A stretch of 64,000 nt of DNA from an uncultured delta proteobacterium (GTDB lineage: Bacteria > Myxococcota > Myxococcia > SLRQ01): positions 1,312,001 to 1,376,000 of the forward strand of contig CAVSGM010000002.1 of assembly GCA_963727485.1 (NCBI GenBank), written 5' to 3'. The notes beneath the pieces were generated by a model. It was given only the letters and a program-made list of their open reading frames with translations, did no database searches and was not told the DNA's origin. The position numbers were made by a program, and so were the translations under genes. Below are positions 23,648-42,682 of this stretch, piece after piece (the first letter of the stretch is position 1; every line of letters begins with the position of its first letter).

Positions 23648-23724
23648 GCGGCGGAGGCGTCCGGGATCATTGGGGTCGGGTCCTGGGGCGGTCCCTGGGG
23701 GCCCATCCGGATCCCGGTCGTGGA

Positions 23725-23777
23725 CGCAATCGGTGCGCCTCGCGCCAGAGCTGCCTGCACCGGGTGCACCCAATGCG
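23725..23777. promoter_or_regulatory. Cluster of (C/T)GCA-N5-TGC(G/A) sites between divergent sigma54 promoters
   Basis: CGCAATCGGTGCG 23725-23737; TGCACCGGGTGCA 23756-23768; TGCACCCAATGCG 23765-23777. Confidence 0.6.
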
Positions 23778-23830
23778 GCCTGGGGCCCGAAAATCCCCCG
23801 GTTTCCGCGGGCGGTGTCCAGGCCTGGGTC

Positions 23831-23846
23831 CGGCATGGGGTCTGCA
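23831..23846 (+). promoter_or_regulatory. Putative sigma54 promoter of the CBS genes
   Basis: CGGCATGGGGTCTGCA (GG-N10-GC). Confidence 0.6.
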
Positions 23847-23937
23847 GATCCTGCCGGCGGGGGGCTGGCCCGCGGGACCGGCGCGCCGGATGGGTGCGTC
23901 CGGGGCGGGCGTGGCGGCGCCCCGAAGGAGAGCCGCC

Positions 23938-24754
23938 ATGCTGGTCCGCGACGCGATGAACCGCGGGGTGATGACCATCCGCGAGGACGAGCCCTTCTCG
24001 CTCGCAGTGCAGATGATGCTCTGGGCCGGGGTGCGCCACCTCCCGGTGATGCGCGAGGGCAAGGTGGTGGGCCTGGTGAGCGAGCGGGACATCCTCCGCT
24101 TCCGCGCCGACCAGCCCGCGGACAGGCCCGCTGGAGCGCCCGGTGAGCGAGGCGATGGTGGCCCCGGTGGCCTGGGCGGACCCCGAGGAGGACCTCACCG
24201 AGGCGGTGGCCCGCTTCGCCGACTCGAAGGTCGGCTGCCTGCCCGTCCTCTCCAAGGGCGACCTGGTCGGCATCCTCTCGATCATCGACGTCCTGGCGCA
24301 CCAGGTGCGGACCGCCCTGGGCGAGGGCGCCGAGATCGGCCCCCGGGTCCAGGACCTGATGACCCCCGAGCCCCTCACCGTCCGCGCCGACGACTACCTC
24401 CTCGACGCCGCCGCGCGGATGAGCCAGGCGGGCATCCGCCACCTGCCGGTGATCGACGGCGACGGAAGGCTCCTGGGCATGCTCGGCGACCGGGAGGTCC
24501 GCGTCGCCGTGGGCAACCCCCAGCGCTTCCTCGACGAGAAGGCGACCCAGGTGAAGATCCAGTCCATGCGGGTGCGCGACGCCATGGTCCGCCAGCCGCT
24601 CAAGGTGAACCCCGACTCGCCCCTCTCGCTCCTGCTCACCGCCTTCACCGACTGGCGCATCGGCGCCCTCCCGGTGGTCGACGCCGAGGATCGCCTCCAG
24701 GGCATCGTCTCCTACGTGGACGTTCTCCGGGTGCTCCGGGAGCGGATGGGCTAG
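23938..24754 (+). CDS. Four-CBS-domain protein (frameshift ~24110-24140)
   Basis: MLWAGVRHLPV...GLVSERD; VGCLPV; GIRHLPVID; DWRIGALPVVD. Confidence 0.85.
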
Positions 24755-24767
24755 GCTTGCCGCCGCG

Positions 24768-25187
24768 ATGAACGGACCGACGATCCGCCAGTGGATGACC
24801 GCAGCCCCGGTGACCATCGACCGGGACGACACCCTGGAGACCGCCCACCGCCTCATGCGCCGGTGGGCCATCCGGCACCTGCCGGTGGTCGACGGGGATC
24901 AGCTGGTGGGCATCGTCTCCGACCGGGACCTCTCCATCGTCGAGACCCTCTCCAGCGTCGACCCCCAGACCGAGAACATCGAGGAGGCCATGACCTCGGC
25001 GCCCTACACGGTGCACCCGGACGCCCCGGTGGCCGAGGTGGCGCGGGAGATGGCACGGACCCGGTACGGGAGCGCGGTGGTGGTGGAGAACGGGCAGATC
25101 CTGGGCATCTTCACCACCATCGACGCGCTCAACTGTCTCGCCGAGCTCCTGGGGGCGCCGAAGCAGCCGGCGCCGCAGCTCGCGTGA
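24768..25187 (+). CDS. CBS-pair protein
   Basis: IRHLPVVDG..LVGIVSDRD...GIFTT.DAL. Confidence 0.9.
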   Translation: MNGPTIRQWMTAAPVTIDRDDTLETAHRLMRRWAIRHLPVVDGDQLVGIVSDRDLSIVETLSSVDPQTENIEEAMTSAPYTVHPDAPVAEVAREMARTRYGSAVVVENGQILGIFTTIDALNCLAELLGAPKQPAPQLA

Positions 25188-25446
25188 GCGCCGCCGGGGA
25201 CGCCGCGGCACAGCCTGCCGGGTACGACGCCTCCCCGGCGCGTCTCGTTGCACCCCCCCTCGCCCTCGGAGACGGGCTGTGGGCCTGGAACCACGCTGCG
25301 CTGCGCGAAGCCTGTGCAGAAACGGCCCCGGGCGGGGCAAAATGGGGCGATGCGCCCCGCATGCCGGGGCACGGGTCAGAATGACCCAGGCGGGCGCCAG
25401 GGCCGATCCACCTGGATCCGGGCGGTTGGCCCGACCCCCGGAGATC

Positions 25447-25462
25447 TGGCATCCCCTTCGCA
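25447..25462 (+). promoter_or_regulatory. Putative sigma54 promoter of a small ORF
   Basis: TGGCATCCCCTTCGCA (GG-N10-GC). Confidence 0.5.
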
Positions 25463-25507
25463 GAAGCTCCCCCTGCCCGGCGGACGGGCCCTATCGAGGA
25501 GGAGCCG

Positions 25508-25639
25508 ATGCAGACCAAGACGCGCAAGGAGCTGGTGGCCGTTCCCTTTGGCGTGGAGATGTGGTCCCTTTACGCCATGAGCCTCTTCGGGGCCCCACCG
25601 CCCCGGACCCTGCCCCCGCCAAGGCACCGCAGCCGCTGA
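25508..25639 (+). CDS. Small ORF, 43 aa (MQTKTRKELVAVPFGVEMWSLYAMSLFGAPPPRTLPPPRHRSR)
   Basis: Strong GAGGAGGAG RBS and a sigma54-like promoter directly upstream; too short for the ORF track. Confidence 0.45.
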   Translation: MQTKTRKELVAVPFGVEMWSLYAMSLFGAPPPRTLPPPRHRSR

Positions 25640-25705
25640 CCCTTCCCCCGTCTTCCCCCCGGCCCCGCCCGGGGTCCCCTCCAACCCCCCGGGTCCTCGA
25701 CGACC

Positions 25706-26512
25706 GTGTGTGAGCTCCTGGGCATGAGCGCCCGCCACCCCACCTGGGTGAAGGGCAGCTTCTCCGAGCTCGCCGCCCATGGCGGCGGCACCGGCCACCA
25801 CGCCGACGGCTGGGGGCTCGCGGCCTACGAAGGGCTCGACGCGCGCCTGGTCCGCGAGGCCGCCCCCGCCGCCCACTCCGCCTGCGCCCGGCTGCTGGCC
25901 TCCGGCGACCTCCACAGCCCCCTGGTGCTGGCCCACGTCCGCCGGGCCACCCGCGGCGCCCTGACCCTCGCCAACACCCAGCCCTTCTCCCGGCAGCTCG
26001 GGGGGCGGGTGCACCTGTTCGCCCACAACGGCGATCTCCCGGGCATCGCCGACGACCCCTGGTTCGCCCCGGGGTTCCACCGGCCCGTGGGGGACACCGA
26101 CTCCGAGGTCGCCTTCTGCGCCCTGCTCCGGCGCCTCGAGGGCCTCTATGCCGACGCGCCGTCGCCGGCGCCCGCCCGGCGCCTGGCCCTGGTCGCCGAG
26201 CTCGCCGAGCGCCTCCGGCCCCTGGGCCCCGCGAACTTCCTCTACGCCGACGGCGAGTACCTCTTCGCCCACGGCCACCGGCGCCACCAGGCCGACGGCA
26301 CCATCCGCGCCCCCGGGCTCCACCTCCTCCAGCGACACTGCCGCGCCGGCGGGCACCTGGCCCTCGAGGGCCTCTCGCTCGCCGCCGGCGACGCCGAGCA
26401 GGCGGTGTCCCTGGTGGCCTCGGTGCCCCTCTCCGAGGGCGAGGCCTGGCGGCCGCTGGCCGAGGGCGAGGTGGTGGCGCTTTGGGCCGGCGAGGTCGTC
26501 GACCTCGGCTGA
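25706..26512 (+). CDS. Class II glutamine amidotransferase (Ntn hydrolase; YafJ/EgtC-like)
   Basis: N-terminal Cys (MCELLGMS), H.DGWG, AHVRRAT, NTQPF, FAHNG, GDTDSE. Confidence 0.9.
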   Translation: MCELLGMSARHPTWVKGSFSELAAHGGGTGHHADGWGLAAYEGLDARLVREAAPAAHSACARLLASGDLHSPLVLAHVRRATRGALTLANTQPFSRQLGGRVHLFAHNGDLPGIADDPWFAPGFHRPVGDTDSEVAFCALLRRLEGLYADAPSPAPARRLALVAELAERLRPLGPANFLYADGEYLFAHGHRRHQADGTIRAPGLHLLQRHCRAGGHLALEGLSLAAGDAEQAVSLVASVPLSEGEAWRPLAEGEVVALWAGEVVDLG

Positions 26513-26553
26513 CGCCGGCCCGCGGCACCCCCCGGAGGGCGTTGCACGGTTGA

Positions 26554-26653
26554 CGCAAAACCCGCGCAACCGGCTCGCGGGATCGGCCGCCGCTGCGCCG
26601 CGAAGGGGAAATGTCGCCTGTTTTCAGCGCCTCAGGACGGCACGAAGGTTGCT
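26554..26653 (+). promoter_or_regulatory. UAS-like site plus sigma54 promoter of the third CBS gene
   Basis: CGCAAAACCCGCG at 26554-26566; CGGCACGAAGGTTGCT at 26638-26653. Confidence 0.7.
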
Positions 26654-26680
26654 GTGTTCTGGCGCACAGGAGGACACGCC

Positions 26681-27535
26681 ATGCGCATTCGCGAGCTGAT
26701 GAACCCCCGGGTCTTCGCCATCCGCGACACCGATCCTGCGGGCCTGGCCCTGCAGACCATGCTCTGGGCCGGGGTCCGGCACCTGCCCGTGGTCCACGAC
26801 GGGGGGGTGGTCGGGGTGATCACCGAGCGGGACCTGCTCCGGCAGCGCGCCACCGCCGGCAACCGCGCCGCCCTCCAGTCCCCGGTGGCCGAGGCGATGA
26901 CCACGCCGGTGGAGACCACGCCCCCGGAGGCCCCGGTGGACGACGTCGCCGCCCGGATGGCCACCCTCAAGATCGGCTGCCTCCCGGTGGTCGACGACGG
27001 GGTCCTGGTGGGCATCGTCACCACCACCGACCTCCTCGCCTGGCAGGGGCGCCGGGCCTTCGACCCCACCCCCCACTCGGGGCTCACCGTCGGCGCCCTG
27101 ATGAGCCGGGAGCCGGCGTCGGTCCACGTGGGCGACGGCCTCCTCGCCGCCGCCGAGCGGATGTCCATCCTCGGGGTCCGCCACCTGCCGGTGGTCGACG
27201 AGGCGATGCAGGTGGTGGGCATCCTCTCGGACCGCGACGTGCGCATCGCCATCGGTGGCCCCCCCGACCAGCTGCGCGCCCCCCAGGCCCTGGCGCGGAT
27301 CCGGGGCATGCGGGTCGATGAGGCCATGACCGCCGAGCCCCTGACCCTCGAGACCAGCACCCCCCTGATGACCGCGGTGAGCTACCTCATCGACTGGCGC
27401 ATCGGGGCAATCCCGGTGGTGGACGACGCCGGGCGCCTCGCTGGGATCCTGTCGTACGTCGACGCCCTGCGGGGGCTGCGGGAGGTCGAGCTCCGCCGGG
27501 AGGTCGAGGCGCCGGAGAAGCGGCCGCGGGCGTAG
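26681..27535 (+). CDS. Four-CBS-domain protein (paralog of 23938-24754)
   Basis: MLWAGVRHLPV, IGCLPVVD, GVRHLPVVD, DWRIGAIPVVD; AGGAGG RBS. Confidence 0.92.
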   Translation: MRIRELMNPRVFAIRDTDPAGLALQTMLWAGVRHLPVVHDGGVVGVITERDLLRQRATAGNRAALQSPVAEAMTTPVETTPPEAPVDDVAARMATLKIGCLPVVDDGVLVGIVTTTDLLAWQGRRAFDPTPHSGLTVGALMSREPASVHVGDGLLAAAERMSILGVRHLPVVDEAMQVVGILSDRDVRIAIGGPPDQLRAPQALARIRGMRVDEAMTAEPLTLETSTPLMTAVSYLIDWRIGAIPVVDDAGRLAGILSYVDALRGLREVELRREVEAPEKRPRA

Positions 27536-27830: not shown

Positions 27831-28940
27831 CTACCTCGCCGTGTGGCACGCCACGCAGGTGCTCGACGTATGCATCTGGCTCTCCCGGCCGGTGAAGCCG
27901 GCGGGGTGAGGGTCGCCGCCGGGGCCGCCCGGCTTGTGGCAGTTCACGCAGATGCTCGCCGCGCCCTGGTCGTGGCAGGCGGCGCACTGCTCGATGTGCA
28001 TCCGAGCCTGGAGGCCGTGGTTCTGGATCCACCCGGTGGGGTGCGGCGAGGTCGGGAGGTTCAGGTCCTTGGCCACGCCCCGGGTCTTGTCGTGGCAGTC
28101 CTTGCAGAAGGTGGTGCCGTGGCAGGTCTGGCACGTCGCCGGGTGCGCGTCGGCCTCGAGGGCGTGGCGGCCCAGCCAGTCACCCCGGTGGATGAAGTGC
28201 CGGTCGGTGCGGTCGGGCATGGACACCGAGGCGCGCACCGGCGTGGTCCGGCTGTGGCAGTCGGCGCAGAAGGTCGGGTCGTGGCAGGTGGCGCAGAGGG
28301 TGGACGAGCCCTTGGCCCAGGCCCCGTGCATCCCGAAGAACCCGGGCCCGTGCACCGCGGTGCCGGTGGAGGTGTAGGTCAGCTCCCGGAGGTTCTTGTG
28401 GCAGCTGTCGCAGGCCAGGCGATCCATCTGCTGCTGGTGGACGTGGCAGGTGCGGCACACGTTCATCTTGGGCAGGAGCCGCTCGGTGACGTGGGTCGCC
28501 GTCTGCCCGTTGGTGTGGCAGGTCAGGCAGGTCACGCCCTTCATCGCCAGGTGCGCCTTGTGGTTGAAGTGCAGCTGGATGGGCTCGGGCGGCGGCACCG
28601 CCGAGGGATCCTTGGCGTTGACGTGACACATGCCGCACTTCTTCTTGGCCTGGGCCTCGTCGTGGCACTGATAGCAGAAGTCCATCTTGGGCTTGTGCAC
28701 CGTGCCCGCCACCGTGGCGTCCTGGGCGTTGTCGTGGCAGTCGGTGCAGGCCACGCCGTTCTCGTAGTGCTTGTGGTGCGAGAAGATGAGCTGGTCGGGC
28801 TGGGGCAGCTCCCCGGGCTTGGGGAAGAGGACCACCGGTCCGGCGGGCGGGGCGGGCTTGTCCGGCTTCGCCGGCCCGGCAGCCAGCGCCGGGAGGGTCA
28901 CGGCCGCGGCGACGACGAGGGCGAGGGTGCGTCGGATCAC
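27831..28940 (-). CDS. Periplasmic multiheme cytochrome c, 13 CxxCH (cytochrome c3/c7-like repeats plus doubled-CxxCH units)
   Basis: Sec signal; FSH..H...C..CH modules; 13 CxxCH counted; GTGA overlap with the upstream gene. Confidence 0.92.
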   Translation of the reverse strand: MIRRTLALVVAAAVTLPALAAGPAKPDKPAPPAGPVVLFPKPGELPQPDQLIFSHHKHYENGVACTDCHDNAQDATVAGTVHKPKMDFCYQCHDEAQAKKKCGMCHVNAKDPSAVPPPEPIQLHFNHKAHLAMKGVTCLTCHTNGQTATHVTERLLPKMNVCRTCHVHQQQMDRLACDSCHKNLRELTYTSTGTAVHGPGFFGMHGAWAKGSSTLCATCHDPTFCADCHSRTTPVRASVSMPDRTDRHFIHRGDWLGRHALEADAHPATCQTCHGTTFCKDCHDKTRGVAKDLNLPTSPHPTGWIQNHGLQARMHIEQCAACHDQGAASICVNCHKPGGPGGDPHPAGFTGRESQMHTSSTCVACHTAR

Positions 28941-30259
28941 GAGCGGCCTCCCAGATCGAACTCGGTCACCAGGCGGATGAGGGCCCGGGCGTCGAAGGCG
29001 CTGACCACCGTCCGGCCGAGCTCCCCGCCGACGCCGAGGTAGACGCCCTTGGTGACCTGGTACTCCCCGAAGAGCTGGGCGGCGAGGCTCTCGCTGCCGG
29101 CCCGGGGATCGGAGAGCGGCGGCGAGTCGTAGAGCCAGGCGAGGAGATCGAGCGACGCCTGGAACTTCTCCAGCGGCCGCCACCGCCCGGAGAGGCGGAG
29201 GCTCACGTAGCCGTTGTCGCCGGTGGGCATCCGCTCCACCGCGAAGGTGGCCCAGAGCCTCGGCAGGGGATAGGCGGTGATGCGGGCCCCGTAGCGGTCC
29301 CCCTGGGCCCCGAAGCCCGCACCACTCGAGCTGGGAAAGAACACCCGGGCGTAGTGGACCTTGAGGACCCACTGCGGGGTGACCGCGTACTGCACGAAGG
29401 CCCGGGCCTCGGCGTAGTCGGAGAGGGTGAACACGCTGAAGATCGACGACTGGTCGATGAGGCGGCCGGGGCTCGCCTGGGCGGCGCCGACCCCGATGGT
29501 GAGCCGGTCGATGGGCCGCAGCCGCAGCATCGCCCGGGCCTGCATCAGCGCCCCGCCCCCGAGGAAATCCCAGGCGGCGTCGGCGACCACGTCGAAGTGG
29601 TTGGAGAGGTCGAGGGCCAGGTCGGCGCCGGCGGCGTCCCGGGCGATGACCCCGGCGCTGCGCGCCTGCATCCAGCTCACCCCGGCGTTCACCAGGCCGA
29701 AGTGGCGCAGACCCACCCGGCCCCCGACCACCCAGTCGGCGGCGGTGTAGTTCTGGAACCGCGAGCGGTCCACGTGCCCGCCGTAGACCTGGAGGTCGGC
29801 GTTGCCGTAGGACAGGCGCAGCCACCCGCCGTCGATCTGGCCGAAGTAGCCGCTGGCCGGCCCGGTGTCGACGATCTGCCGGCCCACCCGGGCGTCGAGG
29901 TGGCCCTTGGGGTCGAGGTACTGGGCGAAGAGGAGGTTCACGTCCGCGGCCGCCGGCTTGCCGGTGACCGAGTCGCCCCCGGCGCCGAGGGTGCCGCTGC
30001 CCCACACCGAGGCGTGGACCGAGAGCCCCGGGGTCCCCAGGTCGTAGCCGGTGAGCTCCAGCCACTGGTAGACCGGGTAGCCGGCCACCGGGCCCCCGTA
30101 GGCCTGCTCCTGGGCGAGGAAGAGGGTCCGGGTGTGCAGGGTGAGCCGGCCCTGGGAGGTGGCGCCGGCGGGGGCGTCCTTGGCGGTGCCGTCGTCGCCC
30201 CGGGCGGCAAAGGGCAGGGCGAGGGCCGAGGCGAGGATGATGGCGGTGAGCCGTCTCAT
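28937..30259 (-). CDS. Putative outer-membrane beta-barrel (porin) of a porin-cytochrome complex
   Basis: Signal peptide, no heme motif, alternating amphipathic aromatic-rich strands (RVGRQ..., IDGGWLRLSY); lies between multiheme genes with overlapping start/stop codons. Confidence 0.75.
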   Translation of the reverse strand: MRRLTAIILASALALPFAARGDDGTAKDAPAGATSQGRLTLHTRTLFLAQEQAYGGPVAGYPVYQWLELTGYDLGTPGLSVHASVWGSGTLGAGGDSVTGKPAAADVNLLFAQYLDPKGHLDARVGRQIVDTGPASGYFGQIDGGWLRLSYGNADLQVYGGHVDRSRFQNYTAADWVVGGRVGLRHFGLVNAGVSWMQARSAGVIARDAAGADLALDLSNHFDVVADAAWDFLGGGALMQARAMLRLRPIDRLTIGVGAAQASPGRLIDQSSIFSVFTLSDYAEARAFVQYAVTPQWVLKVHYARVFFPSSSGAGFGAQGDRYGARITAYPLPRLWATFAVERMPTGDNGYVSLRLSGRWRPLEKFQASLDLLAWLYDSPPLSDPRAGSESLAAQLFGEYQVTKGVYLGVGGELGRTVVSAFDARALIRLVTEFDLGGRS

Positions 30260-31857
30260 TGGCCGACCTCCACGATGCCGTCGATGTGCTTGGACTTGTC
30301 GACCCAGTGGAAGTTGTCGTCGATCACCTGGCCGTGGCAGCCGCCGCAGGTGGTCGCCTGCGGGTGGGGGCTCCCGTCCATCTTGAGCTTGGGCGGGGTC
30401 CCGTGGCAGGTGCCGCAGACCACCTGGGCCTTGGGATCGTTCCACACCGGGCTGGTCGTCGGGCCCCCGGGGAGGCCGGCGCCGTGGCACCAGACGTTCT
30501 GGCAGGTGCCGGTGGTCGGGTCGAAGGTGGGGTCGAGGCCCCCGGCGGCGGCGACGCCCGTGAGGTGGACCAGCTGGTCCTTGGTGGCGTCGAGGTGCCC
30601 GGGGTCGCCGACCTTGGCCGGCACCGTGTGGCAGATGTCGCAGGTGGCCGCGACCCGCGCCGCGCCCTCGGAGAGGTGCGCGTCATGGGCGCCCACGGTC
30701 ATCAGGCTGGGGTCGGTGTTGCCGTCGGGGTCGCGGAAGGGCACCGGGTCGCTCGGGCCGGCGTGGCAGCCGCTGCACGAGTCGGTGTTCGCCCGGACCT
30801 CGATGATCCCGTCGTTGTGGAGCTCGGGGCGGGCGATGGTCATCCCCGGGCCCGCGGTGGCGTGGCAGATCTGGCACTCGGTGGACTGGGGGTGGAGGGT
30901 CACGCCGTCGGGCATGAACGGCGGCGGGGTCCCGTGGCAGGCGCCGCACTTGCCCGCGGCGTCGCCGCTGTTCCAGCTCGGCGAGGTGAGGGTGCCACCG
31001 GTGAGGCCGAAGCCGTGGCAGGCGACGTTCACGCACTGCCCGGTGCTCGCGTCGAAGGAGGGGGTGGCGCCCCGGGCCAGGGCCAGGCCGGAGAAGGTCA
31101 CCCGGGCCTTGGCGTCGGGGTGGATGTGGACCGGGTCGTCGAAGCGCTTGGGCACCTGGTGGCAGTCGGTGCAGCTCACCCCGAGGAAGCCCTCGTCGGC
31201 GTGCTGGTGGCTCTCGTGGGCCCCGCCGGCGGAGAACAGCGGCCCCGGCGGCGGCCACCCGTCGGCGGTGGTGCCGTGGCAGGTGTTGCAGGCCTCGGGG
31301 GTGGAGGCGTGGCAGCGCAGGCACGAGGCCTGCTCGCCGAACTGCCCGCCGTCGTAGGCGGCGCCGTGGCAGTTGCGGCAGCTCGCCATCGTCCACCCCT
31401 CCCGGGCCACCCGGCGCCCGTGGAAGTCCGTGTCCTGGGGGTTGAGGATCCCCGGGGGGTGGAAGAACGACTCGAAGTACCCGAGCTTGTCGGCGACCAC
31501 CCACTGGGTGAGCATCGCCAGGCGCTTCGCCCGGGTGGGGGCGTCGGCGGCGAGGTAGGTGGCGTGGTCCCCGCTGGCCAGCTTGGTGAGCAGGAGGCTG
31601 GTGCCGTCCCCGGCGATGAGGTTGGGGGTGGCGTCGCTCCCGCCGCCGAGGGCGTGCTCGTAGGTGTCCAGGGCGTAGCTGCCCGCCGGGGTGTCCCCGG
31701 CGTGGCAGCTCGTGCACTGGGCGGCGAAGAGCGGCTTGACGTCCTTCACCCAGGTCACCGGCGGGGCCGGGGCCTTCCGGGCGGTGGAGCAGGCGGTCGA
31801 TAGGGCCAGGAGCGCGACCGCCGCGCCCCAGCCCCGTCTCGTCGGGGGGCGTCGCAT
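30256..31857 (-). CDS. Multiheme lipoprotein cytochrome c with Geobacter-type CxxxxCH/CxxCH repeats (11 CxxCH + 2 CX4CH)
   Basis: Lipobox LSTAC; N-terminal planctomycete-type monoheme domain; CVNVACH...W...CGACH and CQNVWCH...W...CGTCH. Confidence 0.9.
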   Translation of the reverse strand: MRRPPTRRGWGAAVALLALSTACSTARKAPAPPVTWVKDVKPLFAAQCTSCHAGDTPAGSYALDTYEHALGGGSDATPNLIAGDGTSLLLTKLASGDHATYLAADAPTRAKRLAMLTQWVVADKLGYFESFFHPPGILNPQDTDFHGRRVAREGWTMASCRNCHGAAYDGGQFGEQASCLRCHASTPEACNTCHGTTADGWPPPGPLFSAGGAHESHQHADEGFLGVSCTDCHQVPKRFDDPVHIHPDAKARVTFSGLALARGATPSFDASTGQCVNVACHGFGLTGGTLTSPSWNSGDAAGKCGACHGTPPPFMPDGVTLHPQSTECQICHATAGPGMTIARPELHNDGIIEVRANTDSCSGCHAGPSDPVPFRDPDGNTDPSLMTVGAHDAHLSEGAARVAATCDICHTVPAKVGDPGHLDATKDQLVHLTGVAAAGGLDPTFDPTTGTCQNVWCHGAGLPGGPTTSPVWNDPKAQVVCGTCHGTPPKLKMDGSPHPQATTCGGCHGQVIDDNFHWVDKSKHIDGIVEVGQ

Positions 31858-33930
31858 CAGGGCGTCTTGGTGTGGACCACGTCGACGCCGAAGGCCTGGC
31901 CCGCGCCGTGGCAGACCTCGCAGGACTCGACACCGGAGGCCGTGGTGTTCAGGGCCGCGTGGGCCGCGGTGGCGGCGCTGTCGTGGCAGGTCAGACAGGG
32001 GGTGGCCTCGGGCACCTCGTAGCTGGTCCCGATGTGGCAGGTGGTGCAGGCGCCCAGCTGCCCGGGGAACCGGACGTCGCTGAAGTCGTGCTTGCTGCCA
32101 CCGTAGCCGTAGACCGTGAGCCCGTTCTGCAGGTTCTCCCCGGCGTGGATCTTGTGGATGAGCACCGGGAAGTAGATGGACTGCGGGGTCCCGGCGCTCG
32201 CCGGCCGCTGGGAGGCGTCGGTGGCGTTCATGTTGTGGCAGACCACGCAGTACTTGGTGTTCTTGCGGATGGTGCCGTGGAGCTCGAGCTTGTAGTGGCA
32301 CTTCTCGCACTTGGCCTGGTCGACGATCTCCTCCCGGGGGGTCGGGGTCCCGCCGCCCACCGCGAAGTAGGCCACCGGGTTCATCGCCGTCTCCCGGAAG
32401 GAGCCGGCGGTGCCGTAGCGGGTGAAGGGGATCATCTGGTAGCCCTCGAGGCCCACGGTCACCGACTCCCCGCCGGCGAGGGTGGTGGGCAGGGGGTTGG
32501 CGCCGGTGACGGTCCAGGAGCCGTCGGGGTTCTGGGTGGCGCCCGAGAGGTCCTCGCTCACCGACCAGGCGATGTCGGCGTTGGGCCCACCGATGTTGGC
32601 GACGATCCGGGCCAGATCCGAGACCAGGATGGCGTTGCCCGCGTCGTCCTGGACGGTGAAGGTGATGGTGGGCGCGGTGTCGGGCGCCACGTTGGTCACG
32701 TCGACGATGGCCAGGTCGAGGCCCGGGAGCTGGCCGTTCTTCTTCAGCCAGGCCTCGTCGGTGAGGTGGCGGTCCTGGAAGTCGAAGAGGGCCCCGGCGG
32801 CGTGGCAGAGGCTACAGCTGTCCGGCGCCTCGGCCCCGGCGGGGTGGAGCACCTTGCCCGCCGGCGGCGGGTCCACGAAGGAGATGGTGTCGTGGCAGGT
32901 GGTGCACACGAACTCGGTGATCTCGGTCTTGGTGAGGTCCTCCTGGGCGGCGCCGGCGTGGCAGGTGGAGCACTGGCGCTGGTCCCGGGGGAAGCGCACG
33001 CCGGTGACCGTGCCGTCCGGCAGCTTCTCGGACCACACGTGGAGGACGTCCCGGTAGCCGGCGATGGCGTACTGGGTGCCCGGCGGGCCGTTGACCACGC
33101 TGGGGAGGTCCACGCCCATGTGGATCCGGTGGATGAGCACCGGGAGGTTGACGGTGTTGCCGGTCTGGGCGTCGGAGCTGGCGTCGTTGTGGCAGGTGAT
33201 GCACAGGCCGACCAGCCGCCGGGCCCCGCCGTGCATCGCCAGGGGGTTGTGGCACTGGTTGCAGTTCTTCGTGAGGACCACCTGGCGGGTCTGGGGTGTG
33301 GCGCCCGAGGGGGTGAAGTCGACGAAGTCGTTGCCCACGTAGGTGGTGTTCTGGAAGTCGCGCTCGCCGTAGGCGGCGACCCGGATGGAGGTGGTGGGAT
33401 CCGGCGCCTGGGGGAGCTGCACGTTGCTCACGTAGGTGTAGGTGCCGAGGGTGACCTCGGTGGTGGTCCCGTTGCGCTCGCTGGTGGCCTGGGTCGCCGG
33501 TGTTCCCGCCCGCGGCGGTCTCGGTCCGGGTCACGTAGGAGTGGTAGCGGCCGGTCGCCGGGTCGAGGTAGGCGAACACGAAGCTCGGGGTCACCGAGCC
33601 CTCGGTCATCCGGCCCGCCACGTCGAGGGCGTCGCCGTTGTCGTCGGCGAGGGTGTAGGTCACCTGGAAGTGGTTGTCGGCGGTGACCTTTGGATCCGAG
33701 AGGGTGAGCACCAGCCCGGGCCCGGAGTAGAGGGCGCTGGGCCCCTGGGGCCCGGCGGGGCCCGTGGGACCGGTGGCCCCGGGGGTCCCGGCGTCACCGG
33801 TGCCGCCGGTCTGGCCGGCGGGGCCCTGGGCGCCGGTCTGGCCGGCGGGGCCCGTGGGCCCGGGAGGGCCCTCACAGGCGGTGACGAGGACGAGCGAGAG
33901 CAGAAGTGGGATCCAACGGATAGACGGCAT
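31857..33930 (-). CDS. mtrC: OmcA/MtrC-family decaheme outer-surface lipoprotein (single-base frameshift ~33497)
   Basis: Lipobox VTAC plus collagen-like GPxG linker; 5+5 CxxCH separated by a beta domain; HGGARR, IHRIH, IHKIH and FP motifs typical of MtrC/OmcA. Confidence 0.9.
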
Positions 33931-33964: not shown

Positions 33965-33980
33965 TCCAACGCGCGTGCCA
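33965..33980 (-). promoter_or_regulatory. Putative sigma54 promoter of the cytochrome operon
   Basis: Minus strand TGGCACGCGCGTTGGA: perfect -24, variant -12 (TTGG). CGCAAAACCTGCG lies upstream at 34135-34147. Confidence 0.6.
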
Positions 33981-34220
33981 GATCTGCGTGGCGCAGCGTC
34001 GCGGTCGGCAACCATCGCGCAACTCCCAGCGTGCATTGGGGAAATGGCCCCTGCCCCCTCTCCGGGATCCACCGGAGTCCGGTCGGGTTTCCCCCCAGCG
34101 TCTTGCAGGCCTTACCGGTTGGCCGGGGAATTTACGCAAAACCTGCGGTGTTCGCGCAGGCGTCCGGCGCAAGGGCGGGCCGGCGCGGGGCCGACCGACG
34201 CACGCCCTACGGGGCCCGGC

Positions 34221-35723
34221 TCAGGCGGCCGGCGCCGGGTCCGCGGTGACCGGGCCCAGGCGCGGGAGCACCACGCGCACCTCGGTCCCCGACCCGGAGC
34301 GGATGCTCACCTCGCCCCCGTGGAGGCTCACCAGGCTGTGGACGATGGCCATCCCCAGCCCCGTGCCCCCGGGCTTGGTCGAGTAGAAGGGCTCGAAGAT
34401 CCGGCTCTGGTGCTCCGCGGGGATCCCCGGGCCGTCGTCGGCCACCGCCAGGACCACCCCCTCGCACCCGGTGTCCACCCGGACGGTGACCCGGCCCCCA
34501 GCGTCCACCGCCTCGGTGGCGTTGCGCACCAGGTTGAGGAGGACCTGCTGGAGCTTGTCGGCGTCGCCGAGGACCTCCACCTTGGCCACCGGGACCTCGG
34601 CGGAGAGGACGATGGACCGCTCCTCGGCCCCGGGGCGCTCGAGATCGACCACCTTGCGCACCAGGGAGACCACGTCCACGGTCTCGGGCAGCAGCTCGCT
34701 GGGCCGGGCGAAGGCGAGGAACTCGACGACCAGGTTCGACAGGCGCCCGAGCTCCTCGCGCACCAGGCCGATGGGCTCGAAGAGGGCCTCGGCCTGGTCG
34801 CGGCCGGTGACCCGGCGCTCCAGGAGCCGGAGCTGGAGGGTGGCGGCGTTGAGGGGGTTTCGGATCTCGTGGGCCAGGCCCGCCGAGAGGGTGCCCACCG
34901 CCGCCAGCTTCTCCGAGAGCCGGGCCCGGCGCTCGAGCTCGCGGACCTCGGTGGTCTCGAGGCCCGAGGCGTAGACCCGCATCGCCCCCTCGGCGTCGGT
35001 GATCACGCTGGAGCGCCAGCTCACCCACCGCTCCACCGGCCGACCGTCCGGGCCCTGACCGAAGATGCGGGTCTCCTGGGAGGTCCCGGGCCCGCCGGCG
35101 CGGAGCCGGGCGAAGGCCGCCTGGGCCGCGGCCCGGTCCGGCTCGGCGACGAAGCGGGCCATCCAGTCGACCCCCACCAGGTCCTCGGGGTCGACGCCCA
35201 CCGCCCGGGCGACGGCGTGGTTCGCCTGGATCACCCGGCCCTCCTCGTCGAGGACCAGGAGCAGGGCCTGGACCGTGTCCACCAGGGTCGAGAGGCGCTC
35301 CTCCCGGGCCGCCAGGGCGACCCGGAGGGCCTCGGCCTCGCGGGTGGAGCGCACCTGGCGCACCGCCCGCCGCACCTGGTGGAGCAGGTCCTCGGGGTCG
35401 AAGGGCTTGAGGACGTAGGCGTAGGCGCCCCCGGCCAAGGCCCCGATGGCGGTCTCCACCGAGGCGTTGCCGGTGATGACGAGCACCTCGCCGCTCCCGT
35501 CGCCGGCGGCCCTGAGGGTGGGCAGGAGCGAGACGCCCACCGCGTCCGGGAGCCCCACGTCCACCAGGGCCACGTCGAAGGGGCGCTCGGCGAGGGCGAG
35601 GCCCGCGGCGGCGGTGGCGGCCACCTCGACCCTCGCCCCGTCGTCCTCGAGGAGCTCCCGGAGGTTCTCGGCGAGGTCCGCGTGGTCGTCGACGACCAGG
35701 ATCCGGGCGCCCGAAAGCTCCAT
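34221..35723 (-). CDS. Hybrid sensor histidine kinase (REC-PAS-HisKA-HATPase)
   Basis: ILVVDD...ALVDVGLPD; PAS domain; AHEIRNPL; NLVRNA; DDGPGI; FYSTK..GTGLG. Confidence 0.92.
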   Translation of the reverse strand: MELSGARILVVDDHADLAENLRELLEDDGARVEVAATAAAGLALAERPFDVALVDVGLPDAVGVSLLPTLRAAGDGSGEVLVITGNASVETAIGALAGGAYAYVLKPFDPEDLLHQVRRAVRQVRSTREAEALRVALAAREERLSTLVDTVQALLLVLDEEGRVIQANHAVARAVGVDPEDLVGVDWMARFVAEPDRAAAQAAFARLRAGGPGTSQETRIFGQGPDGRPVERWVSWRSSVITDAEGAMRVYASGLETTEVRELERRARLSEKLAAVGTLSAGLAHEIRNPLNAATLQLRLLERRVTGRDQAEALFEPIGLVREELGRLSNLVVEFLAFARPSELLPETVDVVSLVRKVVDLERPGAEERSIVLSAEVPVAKVEVLGDADKLQQVLLNLVRNATEAVDAGGRVTVRVDTGCEGVVLAVADDGPGIPAEHQSRIFEPFYSTKPGGTGLGMAIVHSLVSLHGGEVSIRSGSGTEVRVVLPRLGPVTADPAPAA

Positions 35724-36460
35724 CAGAGCACCCGCTCGACCAGCCCCAGCAGGTCCACCGGCCGGAAGGGCTTCTCCAGGAGCGCCACCTCGGGCGGCGC
35801 GCCGGGCCCGCCGAGGGCCTCGGCGAAGTCGGGGCGGTAGCCGGTGATGTAGACCACCGGGATCGGCCCGTCCGGGTGCCGGATGAGCGCCTCCCCCACC
35901 GCGAGGCCGTCGCCGTCGGGGAGGCGCAGATCGACGATGGCGGCCTTGAAGGGCACCGTCTCCAGCAGGCGCCTGCGCGGTGGCGAGGTCCGGCGCCGGG
36001 TGGGGCACCACGCGAGGTGAGCGCCTGGAGCGCCTGGGTGAGCTGGGCCCGGAGGACGTCGTCGTCCTCCACCAGGAGCACCGGGGCCTCGGCGGCGACC
36101 ACCCGGGAGACGAAGGTCGTCAGGGCCCGAGAGATCCACCGGCTTGGCCAGGACGTCCAGGGCCCCGCCGGCCTCGGCCTCGTCGAGGAGGGCGTCCCGG
36201 GAGAAGGCGGTCATCACCACCACCGGCGTCTGGGGCCACCGGGCCTTGACCGCCCGCAGCATCTGCACCCCGTTCATCCCCGGCATCCGCAGGTCGGTGA
36301 GGATGAGGTCCACCGGGTCCCCGGACTCGAGGCGCGCCAGGGCCTCGGCGCCGCCCCCGGCGACCTCCGCCCGGTGACCCTCGTCCTCGAGGATCTCCCG
36401 GAGGTTCTCGGCCAGATCGAGGTTGTCGTCGACGATGAGGACAGTGTGCTTCACGCGCAT
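35723..36460 (-). CDS. Response regulator with two receiver domains (two compensating frameshifts ~36125 and ~35990)
   Basis: VLIVDD...ILTDLRMPG...KP, then VLLVEDD...AIVDLRLPDG...EKPF. Confidence 0.8.
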   Translation of the reverse strand: MRVKHTVLIVDDNLDLAENLREILEDEGHRAEVAGGGAEALARLESGDPVDLILTDLRMPGMNGVQMLRAVKARWPQTPVVVMTAFSRDALLDEAEAGGALDVLAKPVDLSGPDDLRLPGGRRRGPGAPGGGRRRPPGPAHPGAPGAHLAWCPTRRRTSPPRRRLLETVPFKAAIVDLRLPDGDGLAVGEALIRHPDGPIPVVYITGYRPDFAEALGGPGAPPEVALLEKPFRPVDLLGLVERVL

Positions 36461-37683
36461 GCGTCTCCCCCCGGAGCTCGAGACGGACCGCACCCGTCCC
36501 TCGGGCGCCGGCCGCTCACGAGGGATGTTGGGTCCTCGGTGGGGGGGAAGGCAAGGACGAGGCGGATCCGGGCCCCGCCGCCGTCCCGGTTCTCCGCGGT
36601 CACGGTCCCCCCGTGTCGCTCGACGATGCTGCGCACCAGCGCCAGCCCCAGGCCCACCCCCTTGGAGCGGGTGGTCACCAGGGGCTCGAAGGCGTCCCCC
36701 AGGGCCTCGGGGGCGAAGCCGGGCCCGTCGTCCTCCACCGAGAGGGTCACCGCGGTGGCGTCCAGGCGCCGGGCGTTCACCCACACCCGGCCCCCGGCCT
36801 CGCCGAGGACCGAGCCGGCGTTGGTGAGGAGGTTGACCACCGCCTGGCGCAGGAGCCCGGCGTCCCCGAGGAGGGCGGCGTCGACGTCGACCTCGACGGT
36901 GACCTCGGGCGGGAGGGCCGCGCCCTCAATCGCCTCGGCGACCACCCGGGCGAGGTCCACCGGCTCGCGCACCGCCTCCTTCTCCCGGGCGAGCTGGAGG
37001 AGGTCGGTGATGATCTGGTTGCTCACCCGCACCTGGGCGGAGATCTTCTCGAGGTGGCGGCCCGCCCGGTCGTCGTCGCCGATGCGCTTGCGCAGGAGGT
37101 AGAGCGAGCTCTCGATGACCCCCAGGGGGTTGCGCAGGTCGTGGCCGATCCCCGCGGCGACCTGGCCGATGGTGGCGAGGCGCTCCCGGCGCCGGAGCCG
37201 GGCGTTGCTGTCCTCCCGGTAGGTCTCCAGCATGATCGCCAGCTCCATGTCGAAGAGCTTGTCCACCGCGGCGCTGGCCCGCTGCCGGGCGGCGGCGTCG
37301 CCGGCGTAGGCGTCCTCGACGACCTCCCGGAAGTCGAGGCGCATCACGTCCATGGCGGTGAACATGTAGTGCTGGGGCAGCGCGATCTGGACGTGGACCC
37401 GGCCGATGCGGGCCCGGCGCTCGAAGAACGCCTGGTCGTGGGGCCCCTCGAGGCCCGAGTCCATCCACGCCACCAGGGTCCGCTTCAGGCGGTGGGCCTG
37501 GGCCTGGCCCCCGCGGATGGCCTCGTGGGCCTTCGGGTGGGCGAAGATCCGGGCGTAGAAGTGCTCGGCAATCCGCTCGAAGTGCGGCGCCGCCCGGGGC
37601 TTCAGGGCCCGGAGGGCCTCGGTGTCCGCCTCGGTGAACCCGATGTAGGCCTGGATGTCGTCGAGGAGCGTGGCGTCGGGCAT
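36451..37683 (-). CDS. Globin-coupled (protoglobin-domain) O2-sensor histidine kinase, AfGcHK-like
   Basis: YIGFT..D...L..L...FY (B10 Tyr)...IGRVHV (proximal His); GHDLRNPL H-box; HATPase boxes. Confidence 0.9.
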   Translation of the reverse strand: MPDATLLDDIQAYIGFTEADTEALRALKPRAAPHFERIAEHFYARIFAHPKAHEAIRGGQAQAHRLKRTLVAWMDSGLEGPHDQAFFERRARIGRVHVQIALPQHYMFTAMDVMRLDFREVVEDAYAGDAAARQRASAAVDKLFDMELAIMLETYREDSNARLRRRERLATIGQVAAGIGHDLRNPLGVIESSLYLLRKRIGDDDRAGRHLEKISAQVRVSNQIITDLLQLAREKEAVREPVDLARVVAEAIEGAALPPEVTVEVDVDAALLGDAGLLRQAVVNLLTNAGSVLGEAGGRVWVNARRLDATAVTLSVEDDGPGFAPEALGDAFEPLVTTRSKGVGLGLALVRSIVERHGGTVTAENRDGGGARIRLVLAFPPTEDPTSLVSGRRPRDGCGPSRAPGGDACA

Positions 37684-37693
37684 CGCGGGTAGG

Positions 37694-38110
37694 TCACTTG
37701 ACCAGCAGCACCGGGCACGGTGCGAGGATGCCCACCTTGTAGCTCAGAGTGCCCCAGCCTGCACCCGGCTGTTCGAGGTCGATGGGGTGCGAGCCGAGGA
37801 CCACCAGGTCGGTCCCCGCCTCGTCCACGTAGCGGACAATCTCCTCGGCGCGGTCGCCATAGCGCAGGACCCCCTCGGCCCGGGCCCCGGCGGCCTCCAC
37901 GCGCCGCTTCGCCCCCTCGAGGTGGGCGCGGGCCCGCGCCTCGAGGCGCGCGTAGAAGTCCGGGTCCTCGTCGGGGCCGACCCCCGGGATCACCTCCACC
38001 ACGTGGATCAGGGTGATCTCCCCACCTGGGGCCACGATCCTCGCGGCGACGTCCACCGCCGAGAGGTGTCTGGGCGAGAGGTCCAAGGGGACCAGGACGC
38101 GCTCGAACAT
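37694..38110 (-). CDS. Universal stress protein (single domain)
   Basis: MFERVLVPLDLS...DLVVLGSH...APCPVLLVK. Confidence 0.9.
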   Translation of the reverse strand: MFERVLVPLDLSPRHLSAVDVAARIVAPGGEITLIHVVEVIPGVGPDEDPDFYARLEARARAHLEGAKRRVEAAGARAEGVLRYGDRAEEIVRYVDEAGTDLVVLGSHPIDLEQPGAGWGTLSYKVGILAPCPVLLVK

Positions 38111-38119
38111 CGCCGCCTC

Positions 38120-39455
38120 CTACTCGGCGGGCCCCTGCACCACCAGGACCGGCCGGTCGGTGTGCCGCATCACGTACTCGGTGACCGAGCCCAGGAGGCT
38201 GCGGGCCACCCCGGACTGGCCCCGGGAGCCGACCACCACCGCGTCGCACTCCAGGCGCTCGGCGGCGGCCACCAGCTCCCGGCCCACGCTGTCACCCTCG
38301 AGGACATGGACCTCGGTGCGGATGCCCAGGGCCTCGGCGGGGGCGGGGACGCGGGCCCGGAGGGCGTCCTCGAGGCGCGCGCGCTCGCCGACGTCGGGGG
38401 CGCCCTCGAGGACGGTGCACAGGTGGACCTCGCCCCCCTCGCCGACCAGGCCGTAGGCCTGGCGCAGGGCCACGTCGGCGCGCCCGGAGAGGTCGGTGGC
38501 GACCAGCACCCGGTGGAGCCTGGGGACCGGGGCGGTCCGGGCCACCTGGGCGGGGTCCACCGGGACGCAGAGGACCGAGCGCCGGGCGTGGTGCAGGGCC
38601 CCGTGGCTCGAGCCCCCGCGCCAGATCCGTCCCAGGACCCCGCGCCGGTGGCTGCCCACCAGGATGAGAATCGGCGTCCAGGTCCTCGGCGAAGCGGTCG
38701 AGGACGTAGCCGAGGTTCCCCAGGGCGGGCCAGACCTTGAGGGTCGTCTCGCCCTCGCCGGGGAGGGCGCCGATGCGGGCGGTGAGGTCGCGCTCGAGGC
38801 GGGCGACCACCTCCTCGTCGGGGACCACGAAGCCCGAGCCCGCGGCGGGGCGCACGTCGACGGCCTCCCCGGGGGGCCAGTAGGCGTGGACGAAGGTCAC
38901 GTCGACCGGGCCGGCGGCGCGCAGGGTCCGCAGCAGCTCGAGGGCGGCCATCGAGGGGGTGGAGCGGTCGAGGCCCATGACCACCCGCAGCGCCCGGTCG
39001 CCCCGGCCCCAGGCGTCGAAGCCGGCGGTCTCGCCCCGGACCGCCAGCACCGGCCGGGCGGAGAGGCGGGCCAGCCGGTCGGTGACCGAGCCCACCACCA
39101 GGCGCTCCACCGCCCCGCGGCCGAGGCTGCCCACCACCACCAGGCGGACGTCCTCGGCCTCGGCGAGCTCGGCGATCTGCCCGGCCGCCGAGCCCTCGAG
39201 GATCCGGGTCTCGACGGTCACCCGGGCGTCCTCCACCGCGGTGGTGGCGTCGGAGAGGGCGTCGGCCACCCCCTCGCGCATCAGCCGGTCGTACTCGAGG
39301 GTGGCCGCGGCGTCGAGGTTGGCGAGGCCGGCGCTCGGCAGCTGGAACACGTGGACGACGAGGAGCGTGTCCCCGAAGCGGGAGGCCATCCGCGCCGCGA
39401 CCCGGGTGGCCTCGGCGGCCGCCTCGGAGAAGTCGGTGGCGCAGAGGATCTTCAT
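38120..39455 (-). CDS. Multi-domain universal stress protein (frameshift ~38670)
   Basis: KILCATDFS..., VGSVTDRL, VLVATDLS, VVGSRG.SG..R.LLGSV. Confidence 0.85.
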
Positions 39456-39457
39456 GG

Positions 39458-39814
39458 CTACAAGGCTCCGGTCTCCCGCAGATTGCGCAGGACCCGCCAC
39501 ACGTAGATGAGCATGCCCAGCCCGGCAATCGGGATCCCGAGGAAGAAGAAGATCACGAAGGTGATGGGCCGGAAGTAGAGGAGGGGCACCAGCTCCAGTG
39601 CCAGGCCCACGAACACCAGGACGATGGCGATCCGGAGGAGCTTGCCGGTGGGCTCGACGCGGGCCTTGCCCTTCTCGGCGGCGCCGGCCTCTTCGGCCTG
39701 GGCCTTGACGGCGCCGGCCTCGGCGGCCTCGGCGGCGCCCACCTCGGGCTTGGCTCCCTTCGCCTGGTCCTCGGCGGCGTCGGGGGTGCCGCCCTTGGGA
39801 GTGGTCTCGCTCAT
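39458..39814 (-). CDS. Small two-TM membrane protein, translationally coupled to the NapC/NirT gene
   Basis: Ala/Glu/Lys-rich N-terminus then two hydrophobic helices; ATGA overlap. Confidence 0.75.
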   Translation of the reverse strand: MSETTPKGGTPDAAEDQAKGAKPEVGAAEAAEAGAVKAQAEEAGAAEKGKARVEPTGKLLRIAIVLVFVGLALELVPLLYFRPITFVIFFFLGIPIAGLGMLIYVWRVLRNLRETGAL

Positions 39815-40479: not shown

Positions 40480-40508
40480 GTCTGGGCCCTCGGTTGGCCG
40501 TGCTTGGG

Positions 40509-40880: not shown

Positions 40881-41045
40881 GGGGGGTCTCCTGTGGGAGC
40901 GGGTCCGCGAGCCGGACGGCCCGAGGGAAAGCAAGGGCCGCGCCGGACGCGGCTTCCCCCGGGGCCGATCGCCGGAAGCCCGCCCGCCACCGGGGTTTTG
41001 CCCACTGGGCCCCCTCGGGCCGCCTCCGGTGGGGGCAGGACGCCT

Positions 41046-41099
41046 CGCATTTTCTGCGCACACCTTGCGCCAGACAGGGAAAAATGCGCACCTCCTGCA
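41046..41099. promoter_or_regulatory. Cluster of CGCA-N5-TGC(G/A) sites between the cytochrome c operon and the sigma54 activator
   Basis: CGCATTTTCTGCG 41046-41058; CGCACACCTTGCG 41057-41069; CGCACCTCCTGCA 41087-41099. Confidence 0.65.

Positions 41100-41230: not shown

Positions 41231-42682
<1,452 letters not shown>

What the first reader, a model, noticed from the sequence alone, without database searches (positions are those of the whole stretch)
27831..33930. Hybrid porin-cytochrome conduit: MtrC/OmcA-type decaheme paired with Geobacter-type partners instead of MtrAB
Seen: four translationally coupled genes (TGATG/ATGA/GTGA overlaps) encoding a decaheme lipoprotein with MtrC/OmcA architecture, a lipoprotein with 11 CxxCH + 2 CX4CH, a ~440-aa heme-free beta-strand protein with signal peptide, and a 13-CxxCH periplasmic cytochrome (36 heme motifs in total). 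Established: MtrC normally docks on MtrA (decaheme) inside the much larger MtrB barrel, while CxxxxCH...CxxCH repeats and smaller porins typify Geobacter porin-cytochrome clusters. Inference: a chimeric outer-membrane wire (periplasmic 13-heme -> barrel -> 13-heme lipoprotein -> MtrC-like terminal reductase) in a Myxococcota-like organism; I do not know of a characterised complex with this composition.
Basis: partly seen in the sequence, partly recalled or inferred. Interest (0 to 1): 0.85.

Follow-up and report, generated by a model that had tools for sequence, protein, structure and literature searches.

The report
Myxobacterial porin-cytochrome wire with MtrC
Four overlapping genes encode three heme-chain proteins and a predicted outer-membrane barrel that likely carry respiratory electrons out of the cell, joining a Shewanella-type surface cytochrome to a smaller pore probably of the Anaeromyxobacter/Geobacter kind; the layout is common among myxobacteria, and here the surface-cytochrome gene carries a frameshift that is probably a sequencing error.

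Summary
The four overlapping genes and 36 heme motifs are real.

The heme-free protein models as a 22-strand barrel without a plug (pLDDT 93). The 13-heme protein is predicted to thread its C-terminal part through it (score 0.75, best control 0.00). No MtrB or MtrA was found in this 93%-complete genome.

The cluster is not a one-off chimera. Among 401 genomes of the phylum, 145 of 154 with an MtrC-family gene also have this barrel; only 2 have MtrB. The exact four-gene order recurs in 18 of 80 related loci. The barrel plus 12/13-heme pair is the invariant core (77 of 80) and fits the two-gene Anaeromyxobacter Pcc cluster of Shi et al. 2014; I could not test that homology directly. The lipoprotein and MtrC are movable add-ons.

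Verdict: an uncharacterised, phylum-wide variant of the porin-cytochrome conduit. Docking of MtrC, the membrane side of the 13-heme lipoprotein, and activity are untested.

The parts
33966..33980 (-). sigma-54-like -24/-12 site 36 bases before the first ATG (weak lead)
   Evidence: 1 mismatch to a recalled consensus; the window-wide count is at chance level, 42 vs 44 expected at 2 mismatches. 7 of 51 upstream regions of related MtrC genes (6 distinct) have a site with at most 1 mismatch, against 13 of 3000 random, mostly coding stretches
33499..33930 (-). G1 N-terminal part: lipoprotein signal (Cys19), collagen-like Gly-X-Y linker, start of the first beta domain of an MtrC/OmcA-family protein
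   Evidence: PF01391 29.8 bits; aligns to residues 11-146 of intact relative P0183 at 62%
33499..33506 (-). frameshift inside G1, probably an assembly indel
   Evidence: GC3 switches frame; frame change in the tblastn of P0183; 641 frame switches in the 5.55-Mb genome vs 5 in 0.82 Mb of control loci; no contig bridges the site
31857..33506 (-). G1 C-terminal part: MtrC/OmcA-family decaheme (10 CxxCH, no other Cys)
   Evidence: TIGR03507 336.7 bits, PF22113 151 bits, MtrF 3pmq E 1.9e-20, Cys count
30256..31857 (-). G2: 533-aa lipoprotein cytochrome, 11 CxxCH + 2 CX4CH, with a monoheme N-terminal domain and Geobacter-type CxxxxCH/CxxCH repeats; membrane side not shown
   Evidence: lipobox pattern found in 51 of 75 distinct homologues; no solved relative by sequence
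28937..30259 (-). G3: 440-aa heme-free protein, predicted 22-strand outer-membrane barrel without a plug
   Evidence: AlphaFold2 pLDDT 92.8, pTM 0.85, 22 strands; top fold matches are outer-membrane barrels, best Z 20.0, rmsd 3.8, 368 aligned; no Pfam or NCBIfam family
27831..28940 (-). G4: 369-aa 13-heme cytochrome, predicted barrel insert (hemes 6-13 in the contact range, hemes 1-5 outside it, probably periplasmic)
   Evidence: 13 CxxCH; complex score 0.75 vs best control 0.00; barrel directly upstream in 77 of 80 related loci

Best explanation
This four-gene cluster encodes a predicted 22-strand outer-membrane barrel (G3) that is predicted to hold the C-terminal part of the 13-heme cytochrome G4, forming a wire that likely passes respiratory electrons to two probably surface-exposed lipoprotein cytochromes, G2 and the MtrC/OmcA-family decaheme G1, which would reduce Fe(III), Mn(IV) or humic acceptors.

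Shown: the genes, overlaps, motifs, family hits, conservation and co-occurrence. Modelled: the barrel fold and the G3-G4 complex. Inferred: the orientation (five N-terminal hemes in the periplasm, fed by quinol oxidases encoded elsewhere), the surface location of G1 and G2, the reductive direction, and that G1 is intact in the living cell. G3+G4 is the fixed core; G1 and G2 are exchangeable outer modules, and G1 probably acts like OmcA, an accessory terminal reductase.
For: Barrel model with 22 strands, pLDDT 92.8.

G3-G4 complex score 0.75, best of 3 controls 0.00. That mark was reached by 116 of 157 solved complexes and 2 of 215 mismatched pairs; the runs agree in at least 76% of contacts and partner pLDDT is at least 70. 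Contacts fall on alternating residues of most strands, i.e. the lumen.

In the 80 loci picked by G4 similarity: barrel directly upstream in 77 (the other 3 are cut by contig ends), G2-like in 55, MtrC-like in 42, exact order MtrC-G2-G3-G4 in 18, MtrC-G3-G4 in 13.

In 401 phylum genomes: strong barrel match in 155, MtrC family in 154, both in 145, MtrB in 2. A same-family genome has the same order with an intact MtrC (L007).

Shi 2014 describes two-gene porin + 12-heme Anaeromyxobacter clusters, porins of 18-22 strands, and increased Adeh_3392 under Mn(IV). Loci titled Anaeromyxobacter carry this barrel followed by a 12-heme G4 homologue. G2 homologues reach 38 and 27 heme motifs (L077, L096), which fits the cell surface better than the periplasm (inference). 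The genome has cytochrome c maturation genes and three secretins.
Against: No activity or expression data exist for this cluster. G1 is frameshifted here, and a second, near-identical assembly also has it called only as a 459-aa fragment, so a real lesion is not excluded.

The complex pass may come from likeness to solved barrel-cytochrome complexes such as MtrAB, and the calibration holds only roughly with my own alignments. G4 alone models poorly (pLDDT 68).

MtrC is missing from 38 of the 80 loci, including 14 of 44 with about 10 kb of upstream DNA. It stands alone, far from the barrel, in several genomes. Ten genomes have the barrel without MtrC and nine the reverse. Related genomes are not independent. 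Residues +2 and +7 after the lipid Cys show no consistent sorting signal.
Confidence: 0.65

Rival explanations
1. Same conduit, different wiring: G2 sits on the periplasmic side and bridges from the inner membrane to G4, while the MtrC-type G1 docks directly on the outer face of G3-G4, giving a true analogue of MtrCAB.
For: MtrC lies directly before the barrel in 13 of 80 loci, and 5 loci have MtrC without a G2-like gene. In L006, G2 follows an NrfD/Fe-S/NapC-type inner-membrane module. The literature disagrees on the side of a Geobacter conduit cytochrome with atypical motifs: GSU2724 is listed as outer-membrane in Shi 2014 and periplasmic in Jimenez Otero 2018.
Against: Very long G2 homologues (38 motifs, L077) and the variability of G2 fit outer-surface modules, which are the parts swapped in Geobacter conduits. 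At least two MtrC subtypes occur beside the barrel on different branches of the barrel tree, which argues against one fixed docking surface.
Confidence: 0.2
2. The conduit is the three-gene unit G2-G3-G4, and in this lineage G1 is a decaying pseudogene, the frameshift being real.
For: Frameshift at 33499-33506. The second near-identical assembly also yields only a fragment. A same-family genome has G2-G3-G4 without MtrC in the operon (L006).
Against: The genome has about 115 frame switches per Mb against 6 in control loci, as expected from uncorrected indels. Both halves of G1 keep 62-63% identity to an intact relative, with all ten hemes and no in-frame stop.
Confidence: 0.1
3. The conduit runs inward, taking electrons from Fe(II), reduced humics or partner cells.
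For: Porin-cytochrome complexes are used for oxidation in other bacteria. Sequence alone does not give direction.
Against: Known oxidative systems lack an MtrC analogue. The Anaeromyxobacter carriers of the described Pcc pair are metal reducers.
Confidence: 0.05

Closest known systems
Anaeromyxobacter two-gene Pcc cluster, group IV (Adeh_3391-3392, A2cp1_3538-3539, AnaeK_3474-3475; Shi et al. 2014, PMC4245776)
   Same: Porin gene followed by a 12-heme cytochrome of 338-344 aa in the paper. Loci titled Anaeromyxobacter or Anaeromyxobacteraceae carry this barrel family followed by a 12-heme G4 homologue of about 343-377 aa. The strand count of 22 is within the paper's 18-22.
   Different: The described cluster has no outer cytochrome; here a CxxxxCH lipoprotein and an MtrC-family gene overlap the pair. 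G4 has 13 hemes and no lipobox, whereas 70 of 111 homologues have one. Identity to the named proteins was not tested directly.
Geobacter sulfurreducens ExtABCD / ExtEFG and OmbB-OmaB-OmcB conduits (PMC6148476, PMC4245776)
   Same: Small barrel with lipoprotein cytochromes and atypical heme motifs. Outer lipoproteins are swapped between relatives, and a figure note records an extra lipoprotein decaheme upstream of extE in some cluster. Shi's table gives the Anaeromyxobacter porin 24% identity to GSU2726 and GSU2644.
   Different: The barrel partner has 13 hemes rather than 5 or 8. No direct sequence comparison with these proteins was possible.
Shewanella MtrCAB / OmcA (PDB 6R2Q, MtrF 3pmq)
   Same: G1 passes TIGR03507 and hits MtrF, UndA, OmcA and MtrC. 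The predicted arrangement of a cytochrome in a barrel is alike. OmcA also lacks its own MtrAB operon.
   Different: No MtrA (G4 25 bits vs cut-off 192) and no MtrB. The barrel has 22 strands against 26. G1 has no Cys outside the hemes and lipobox, so it lacks the disulfides recalled for Shewanella proteins, and it has a collagen-like linker.
PCC3 (He et al. 2017, PMC5566968) and peat EET1-4 clusters (bioRxiv 10.64898/2026.05.27.727921)
   Same: Genome-predicted porin plus periplasmic and extracellular multiheme cytochromes. The peat clusters include MtrC-like models with divergent porins.
   Different: No conserved inner-membrane protein in this operon and a smaller barrel than most PCC3. The peat clusters are in Acidobacteriota and Verrucomicrobiota; their supplements were not seen, so homology is unknown.

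Membership tests
MtrCAB conduit | MtrC/OmcA-family decaheme lipoprotein | tested here: met
   TIGR03507 336.7 bits vs cut-off 209.3, 10 CxxCH, lipobox in the N-terminal part
MtrCAB conduit | mtrC reading frame intact | tested here: inconclusive
   frameshift at 33499-33506 in an indel-rich assembly; no read bridges it
MtrCAB conduit | MtrA/DmsE-family decaheme as barrel insert | tested here: not met
   G4 has 13 hemes and scores 25.2 bits vs cut-off 192.2 on TIGR03508; nothing over the cut-off in the genome
MtrCAB conduit | MtrB/PioB barrel (about 26 strands) | tested here: not met
   no PF11854 match in G3 or in the 93%-complete genome; the model has 22 strands
Pcc porin-cytochrome clusters (Shi 2014) | porin-like protein of 18-22 strands | tested here: met
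   22 strands in the AlphaFold2 model, pLDDT 92.8; range
Pcc porin-cytochrome clusters (Shi 2014) | adjacent cytochrome of 5-14 hemes linked to the porin | tested here: met
   G4 has 13 hemes; adjacent in 77 of 80 loci; predicted complex
Pcc porin-cytochrome clusters (Shi 2014) | outer-membrane lipoprotein cytochrome, sometimes with atypical motifs | tested here: inconclusive
   G2 is a lipoprotein with 2 CX4CH motifs, but its membrane side is not shown
Pcc porin-cytochrome clusters (Shi 2014) | sequence similarity to OmbB/ExtB/ExtE or Adeh_3391 | not testable with these tools
   no call returned these named proteins; only indirect fit through loci titled Anaeromyxobacter and the paper's identity table
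Pcc porin-cytochrome clusters (Shi 2014) | [quoted passage not shown] | not testable with these tools
   needs proteoliposome or mutant assays
PCC3 (He 2017) | conserved five-helix inner-membrane protein in the cluster | tested here: not met
   the operon has four genes, flanked by a CBS-domain gene and a PAS histidine kinase; definition

The most novel reading that the evidence does not exclude
MtrC-family decahemes dock directly on a 22-strand barrel holding a 12/13-heme wire, and this MtrAB-free complex is the standard extracellular electron conduit of Myxococcota, encoded by about a third of the phylum's genomes (145 of 401 sampled) and missed by screens that require MtrAB.
Probability: 0.3. 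Interest if true: 0.72.

Novelty: new variant of a known kind. Interest (0 to 1): 0.48.

Why it matters
Published surveys of the Mtr pathway that I read kept only genomes with the full MtrCAB set (PMC12133095, methods passage), and this barrel has no Pfam or NCBIfam family (0 of 110 relatives hit NCBIfam). Such screens would miss or misfile these clusters. If the reading holds, many uncultured soil and sediment myxobacteria can respire outside the cell, and MtrC-type cytochromes are portable surface modules rather than MtrAB-bound parts. Anaeromyxobacter, which is cultured, appears to carry the core pair, so the question can be tested. Interest is tempered because the core was probably described in 2014, module swapping is known in Geobacter, and this scan has noted similar hybrids many times.

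Tried and rejected
Frameshift check with public runs: no RNA holder was listed. Contigs of 6 runs were laid; none bridges 33500-33533, so this gave no verdict. Pieces at 95-100% identity from all four genes occur in salt-marsh, sediment and soil runs of 3 studies.

A genome-contig scan with the MtrC part alone found nothing. Broad alignments A1 and A2 gave no usable patterns; an 8-sequence alignment worked.

G4's model found no solved fold at E <= 0.001; the best were alternative complex III ActA chains at E 0.05-0.2. The low-confidence, heme-free model makes this uninformative. G2 has no solved relative by sequence. No Geobacter Pcc barrel appeared among the listed fold matches, which does not exclude one. 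Atlas look-alikes of G3 were unnamed clusters.

No sigma-70 promoter and no terminator of the operon were found. Lipoprotein sorting rules from Myxococcus (+2 Lys, +7 Ala) were not informative: G2 has +7 Ala but only 2 of 51 homologues do.

The 43 loci were partly chosen because MtrC lay near the barrel, so I did not use them for frequencies.

Rejected: a unique recent chimera (the pairing is phylum-wide); a TonB-dependent receptor (no plug, despite the fold match to their barrels); MtrCAB and PCC3 membership.
Full report
Observation. All four genes lie on the minus strand and overlap as described: TGATG, ATGA, GTGA. G2 (31857-30256, 533 aa) has a lipobox, 11 CxxCH and 2 CX4CH and passes TIGR01904. 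G3 (30259-28937, 440 aa) has no Cys and no Pfam or NCBIfam family. G4 (28940-27831, 369 aa) has 13 CxxCH. G1 has 10 CxxCH, passes TIGR03507 at 336.7 bits and hits MtrF, UndA, OmcA and MtrC among solved structures. The total is 36 motifs. Signal peptides were read by eye or by a simple pattern.

The missed frameshift. G1 is split. An intact 692-aa relative aligns in one frame to 33499 and in another from 33506, at 62-63% identity. A codon-bias scan found 641 frame switches without a stop in the 5.55-Mb genome (115 per Mb, 10 in this window, one at this site) against 5 in 0.82 Mb of 44 loci from other genomes. The control is rough, because it is cytochrome-rich and had its own codon model, but the gap points to an indel-rich assembly. 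Against that reading, a second near-identical assembly also has G1 called only as a 459-aa fragment, and no public contig bridges the site. I put an assembly error at about 80%.

The barrel and its insert. With 116 aligned sequences, AlphaFold2 gives G3 22 strands, no plug, pLDDT 92.8. The top fold matches are outer-membrane barrels: best Z 20.0 (rmsd 3.8, 368 aligned) to the barrel of a TonB-dependent receptor, and MtrB at Z 15.2 (rmsd 6.2, 339 aligned). The G3-G4 complex scored 0.75 against a best control of 0.00; that mark was reached by 116 of 157 solved and 2 of 215 mismatched pairs, the runs agree in at least 76% of contacts, and partner pLDDT is at least 70. The counts hold only roughly with my own alignments, and the pass may reflect likeness to MtrAB. 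Contacts cover G4 residues 169-365 (full-length numbering) and alternating residues of most strands. G4 residues 172-173 touch the short turn between strands 8 and 9, which I read as periplasmic. I infer that hemes 1-5 hang in the periplasm and hemes 6-13 cross the membrane.

No MtrAB. The genome (93% complete) has no PF11854 match and nothing over the TIGR03508 cut-off, and it has one TIGR03507 gene.

Distribution. In 401 genomes of the phylum (own included; one, G196, is flagged unpublished and enters only the tallies), the barrel profile matched 233, of which 155 strongly (E <= 3e-40). TIGR03507 matched 154 (143 over the cut-off) and MtrB matched 2; both MtrB genes sit beside a decaheme with no MtrC in the 20 kb fetched. 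Of these, 145 have both strong barrel and MtrC, 10 only the barrel, 9 only MtrC and 237 neither (lists copied by hand; kin are not independent). The best 80 of 241 G4-like loci in named genomes are nearly all titled Myxococcota or Deltaproteobacteria. With my own profiles, the barrel is directly upstream in 77 of 80, a G2-like gene is present in 55, an MtrC-like gene in 42, both in 37; the exact order occurs in 18 and MtrC-barrel-G4 in 13. Many loci are short, and some come from one genome. Of 44 loci with about 10 kb upstream, 30 have MtrC and 33 a G2-like gene. In the same family, L007 has the same order with an intact MtrC, and L006 has G2-G3-G4 behind an NrfD/Fe-S/NapC-type module instead. 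In several other genomes the pair is two genes and MtrC stands alone elsewhere. A quick barrel tree shows two MtrC subtypes, and absence, spread over several branches (FastTree, midpoint root, no formal test).

Mechanism. Most likely, quinol oxidases encoded elsewhere (candidates: the NapC/NirT protein at 39811-40479; NrfD-type, cytochrome b and alternative complex III-like modules seen by eye) reduce G4's periplasmic hemes. G4 carries electrons through G3, and the lipoproteins G2 and G1 spread them to external acceptors. The core has good support. The positions of G1 and G2 do not: sorting residues are uninformative, and the main rival puts G2 in the periplasm with G1 docking directly.

What is in print. 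Shi 2014 (PMC4245776; parts 1-3 of 6, passages, supplement table rows) describes two-gene porin + 12-heme clusters in Anaeromyxobacter. Loci titled Anaeromyxobacter or Anaeromyxobacteraceae carry my barrel plus a 12-heme G4 homologue, so the core is probably that group, though I could not compare it with the named proteins. Jimenez Otero 2018 (PMC6148476; passages and section 19) reports swapping of outer lipoproteins and an extra decaheme lipoprotein upstream of extE. Olmsted 2022 (10.1101/2022.03.26.485925; passages) notes MtrC and ExtABC hits in Myxococcota genomes. Shaw 2025 (PMC12133095; abstract and passages) finds mtrC apart from mtrAB in Desulfobacterota, with no mention of Myxococcota. 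Baker 2022 (PMC8805035; passages) has no occurrence of Myxococc- or Anaeromyxobacter. I also read passages of PMC11492766, PMC5566968, PMC13013709, PMC3222651, PMC7096707 and PMC12545173, and passages plus section 9 of a 2026 peat preprint, whose supplements are closed and may describe related clusters. Ten searches listed no paper describing this four-gene design; the library lacks most subscription papers. The disulfides of Shewanella MtrC and the sigma-54 consensus are recalled, not taken from a call.

Earlier scan notes. A word search returned 132 findings, of which 8 were shown, reporting MtrC beside non-MtrAB conduits in several phyla, one of them in a myxobacterium. These are unchecked leads and add no evidence, but they lower the surprise. 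Look-ups by place, by sequence and by a longer word list returned nothing.

Verdict. This is a real, conserved, uncharacterised variant of the porin-cytochrome conduit and appears to be the usual design in this phylum. It works like MtrCAB or Pcc, is not a member of MtrCAB, and is probably an extended member of Shi's Anaeromyxobacter group. Interest 0.48.

Noticed in passing
window 15008, 16682, 24130, 36003, 36142, 51614, 51718, 59029, 61408: Further apparent frameshifts from the codon-bias scan. Split genes in this genome should be treated as likely assembly errors.
   Followed up: partly
window 39458-42682: NapC/NirT-family cytochrome (PF03264) with a small downstream membrane protein and a monoheme cytochrome c, next to a sigma-54 activator; a candidate quinol oxidase 6 kb upstream of the operon.
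   Followed up: partly
window 23700-27535 and 34200-39500: The operon sits among CBS-domain genes, probable universal-stress proteins (by eye), a PAS hybrid kinase and a protoglobin-coupled histidine kinase, suggesting an oxygen-responsive neighbourhood.
   Followed up: no
G000:C2:791946-795000: A second, distant barrel (85 bits, frameshifted) followed by another 13-heme cytochrome related to G4. Many phylum genomes have a weak barrel match at about E 1e-25 that may be this paralogue; those were not inspected.
   Followed up: partly
G000:C3:96918-104174: An Fe-S-containing protein (by eye), a 30-heme repeat cytochrome, an 8-heme lipoprotein and a probable barrel: a possible further conduit.
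   Followed up: partly
L006:8661-18393: A complete quinol-to-surface operon in a same-family genome: tetrahemes, Fe-S protein, NrfD, NapC-type 12-heme, then G2-G3-G4, with no MtrC.
   Followed up: partly
L077:4508-8647; L012, L013, L015, L019, L023-L025: A G2 homologue with 38 heme motifs, and a 23-25-heme gene directly after G4 in several loci.
   Followed up: no
proteins P0186, P0206, P0237: Close named relatives of G1 (37-41% identity) come from Anaerolineales, Acidobacteriota and Hydrogenedentes, so this MtrC subtype extends beyond Myxococcota.
   Followed up: no
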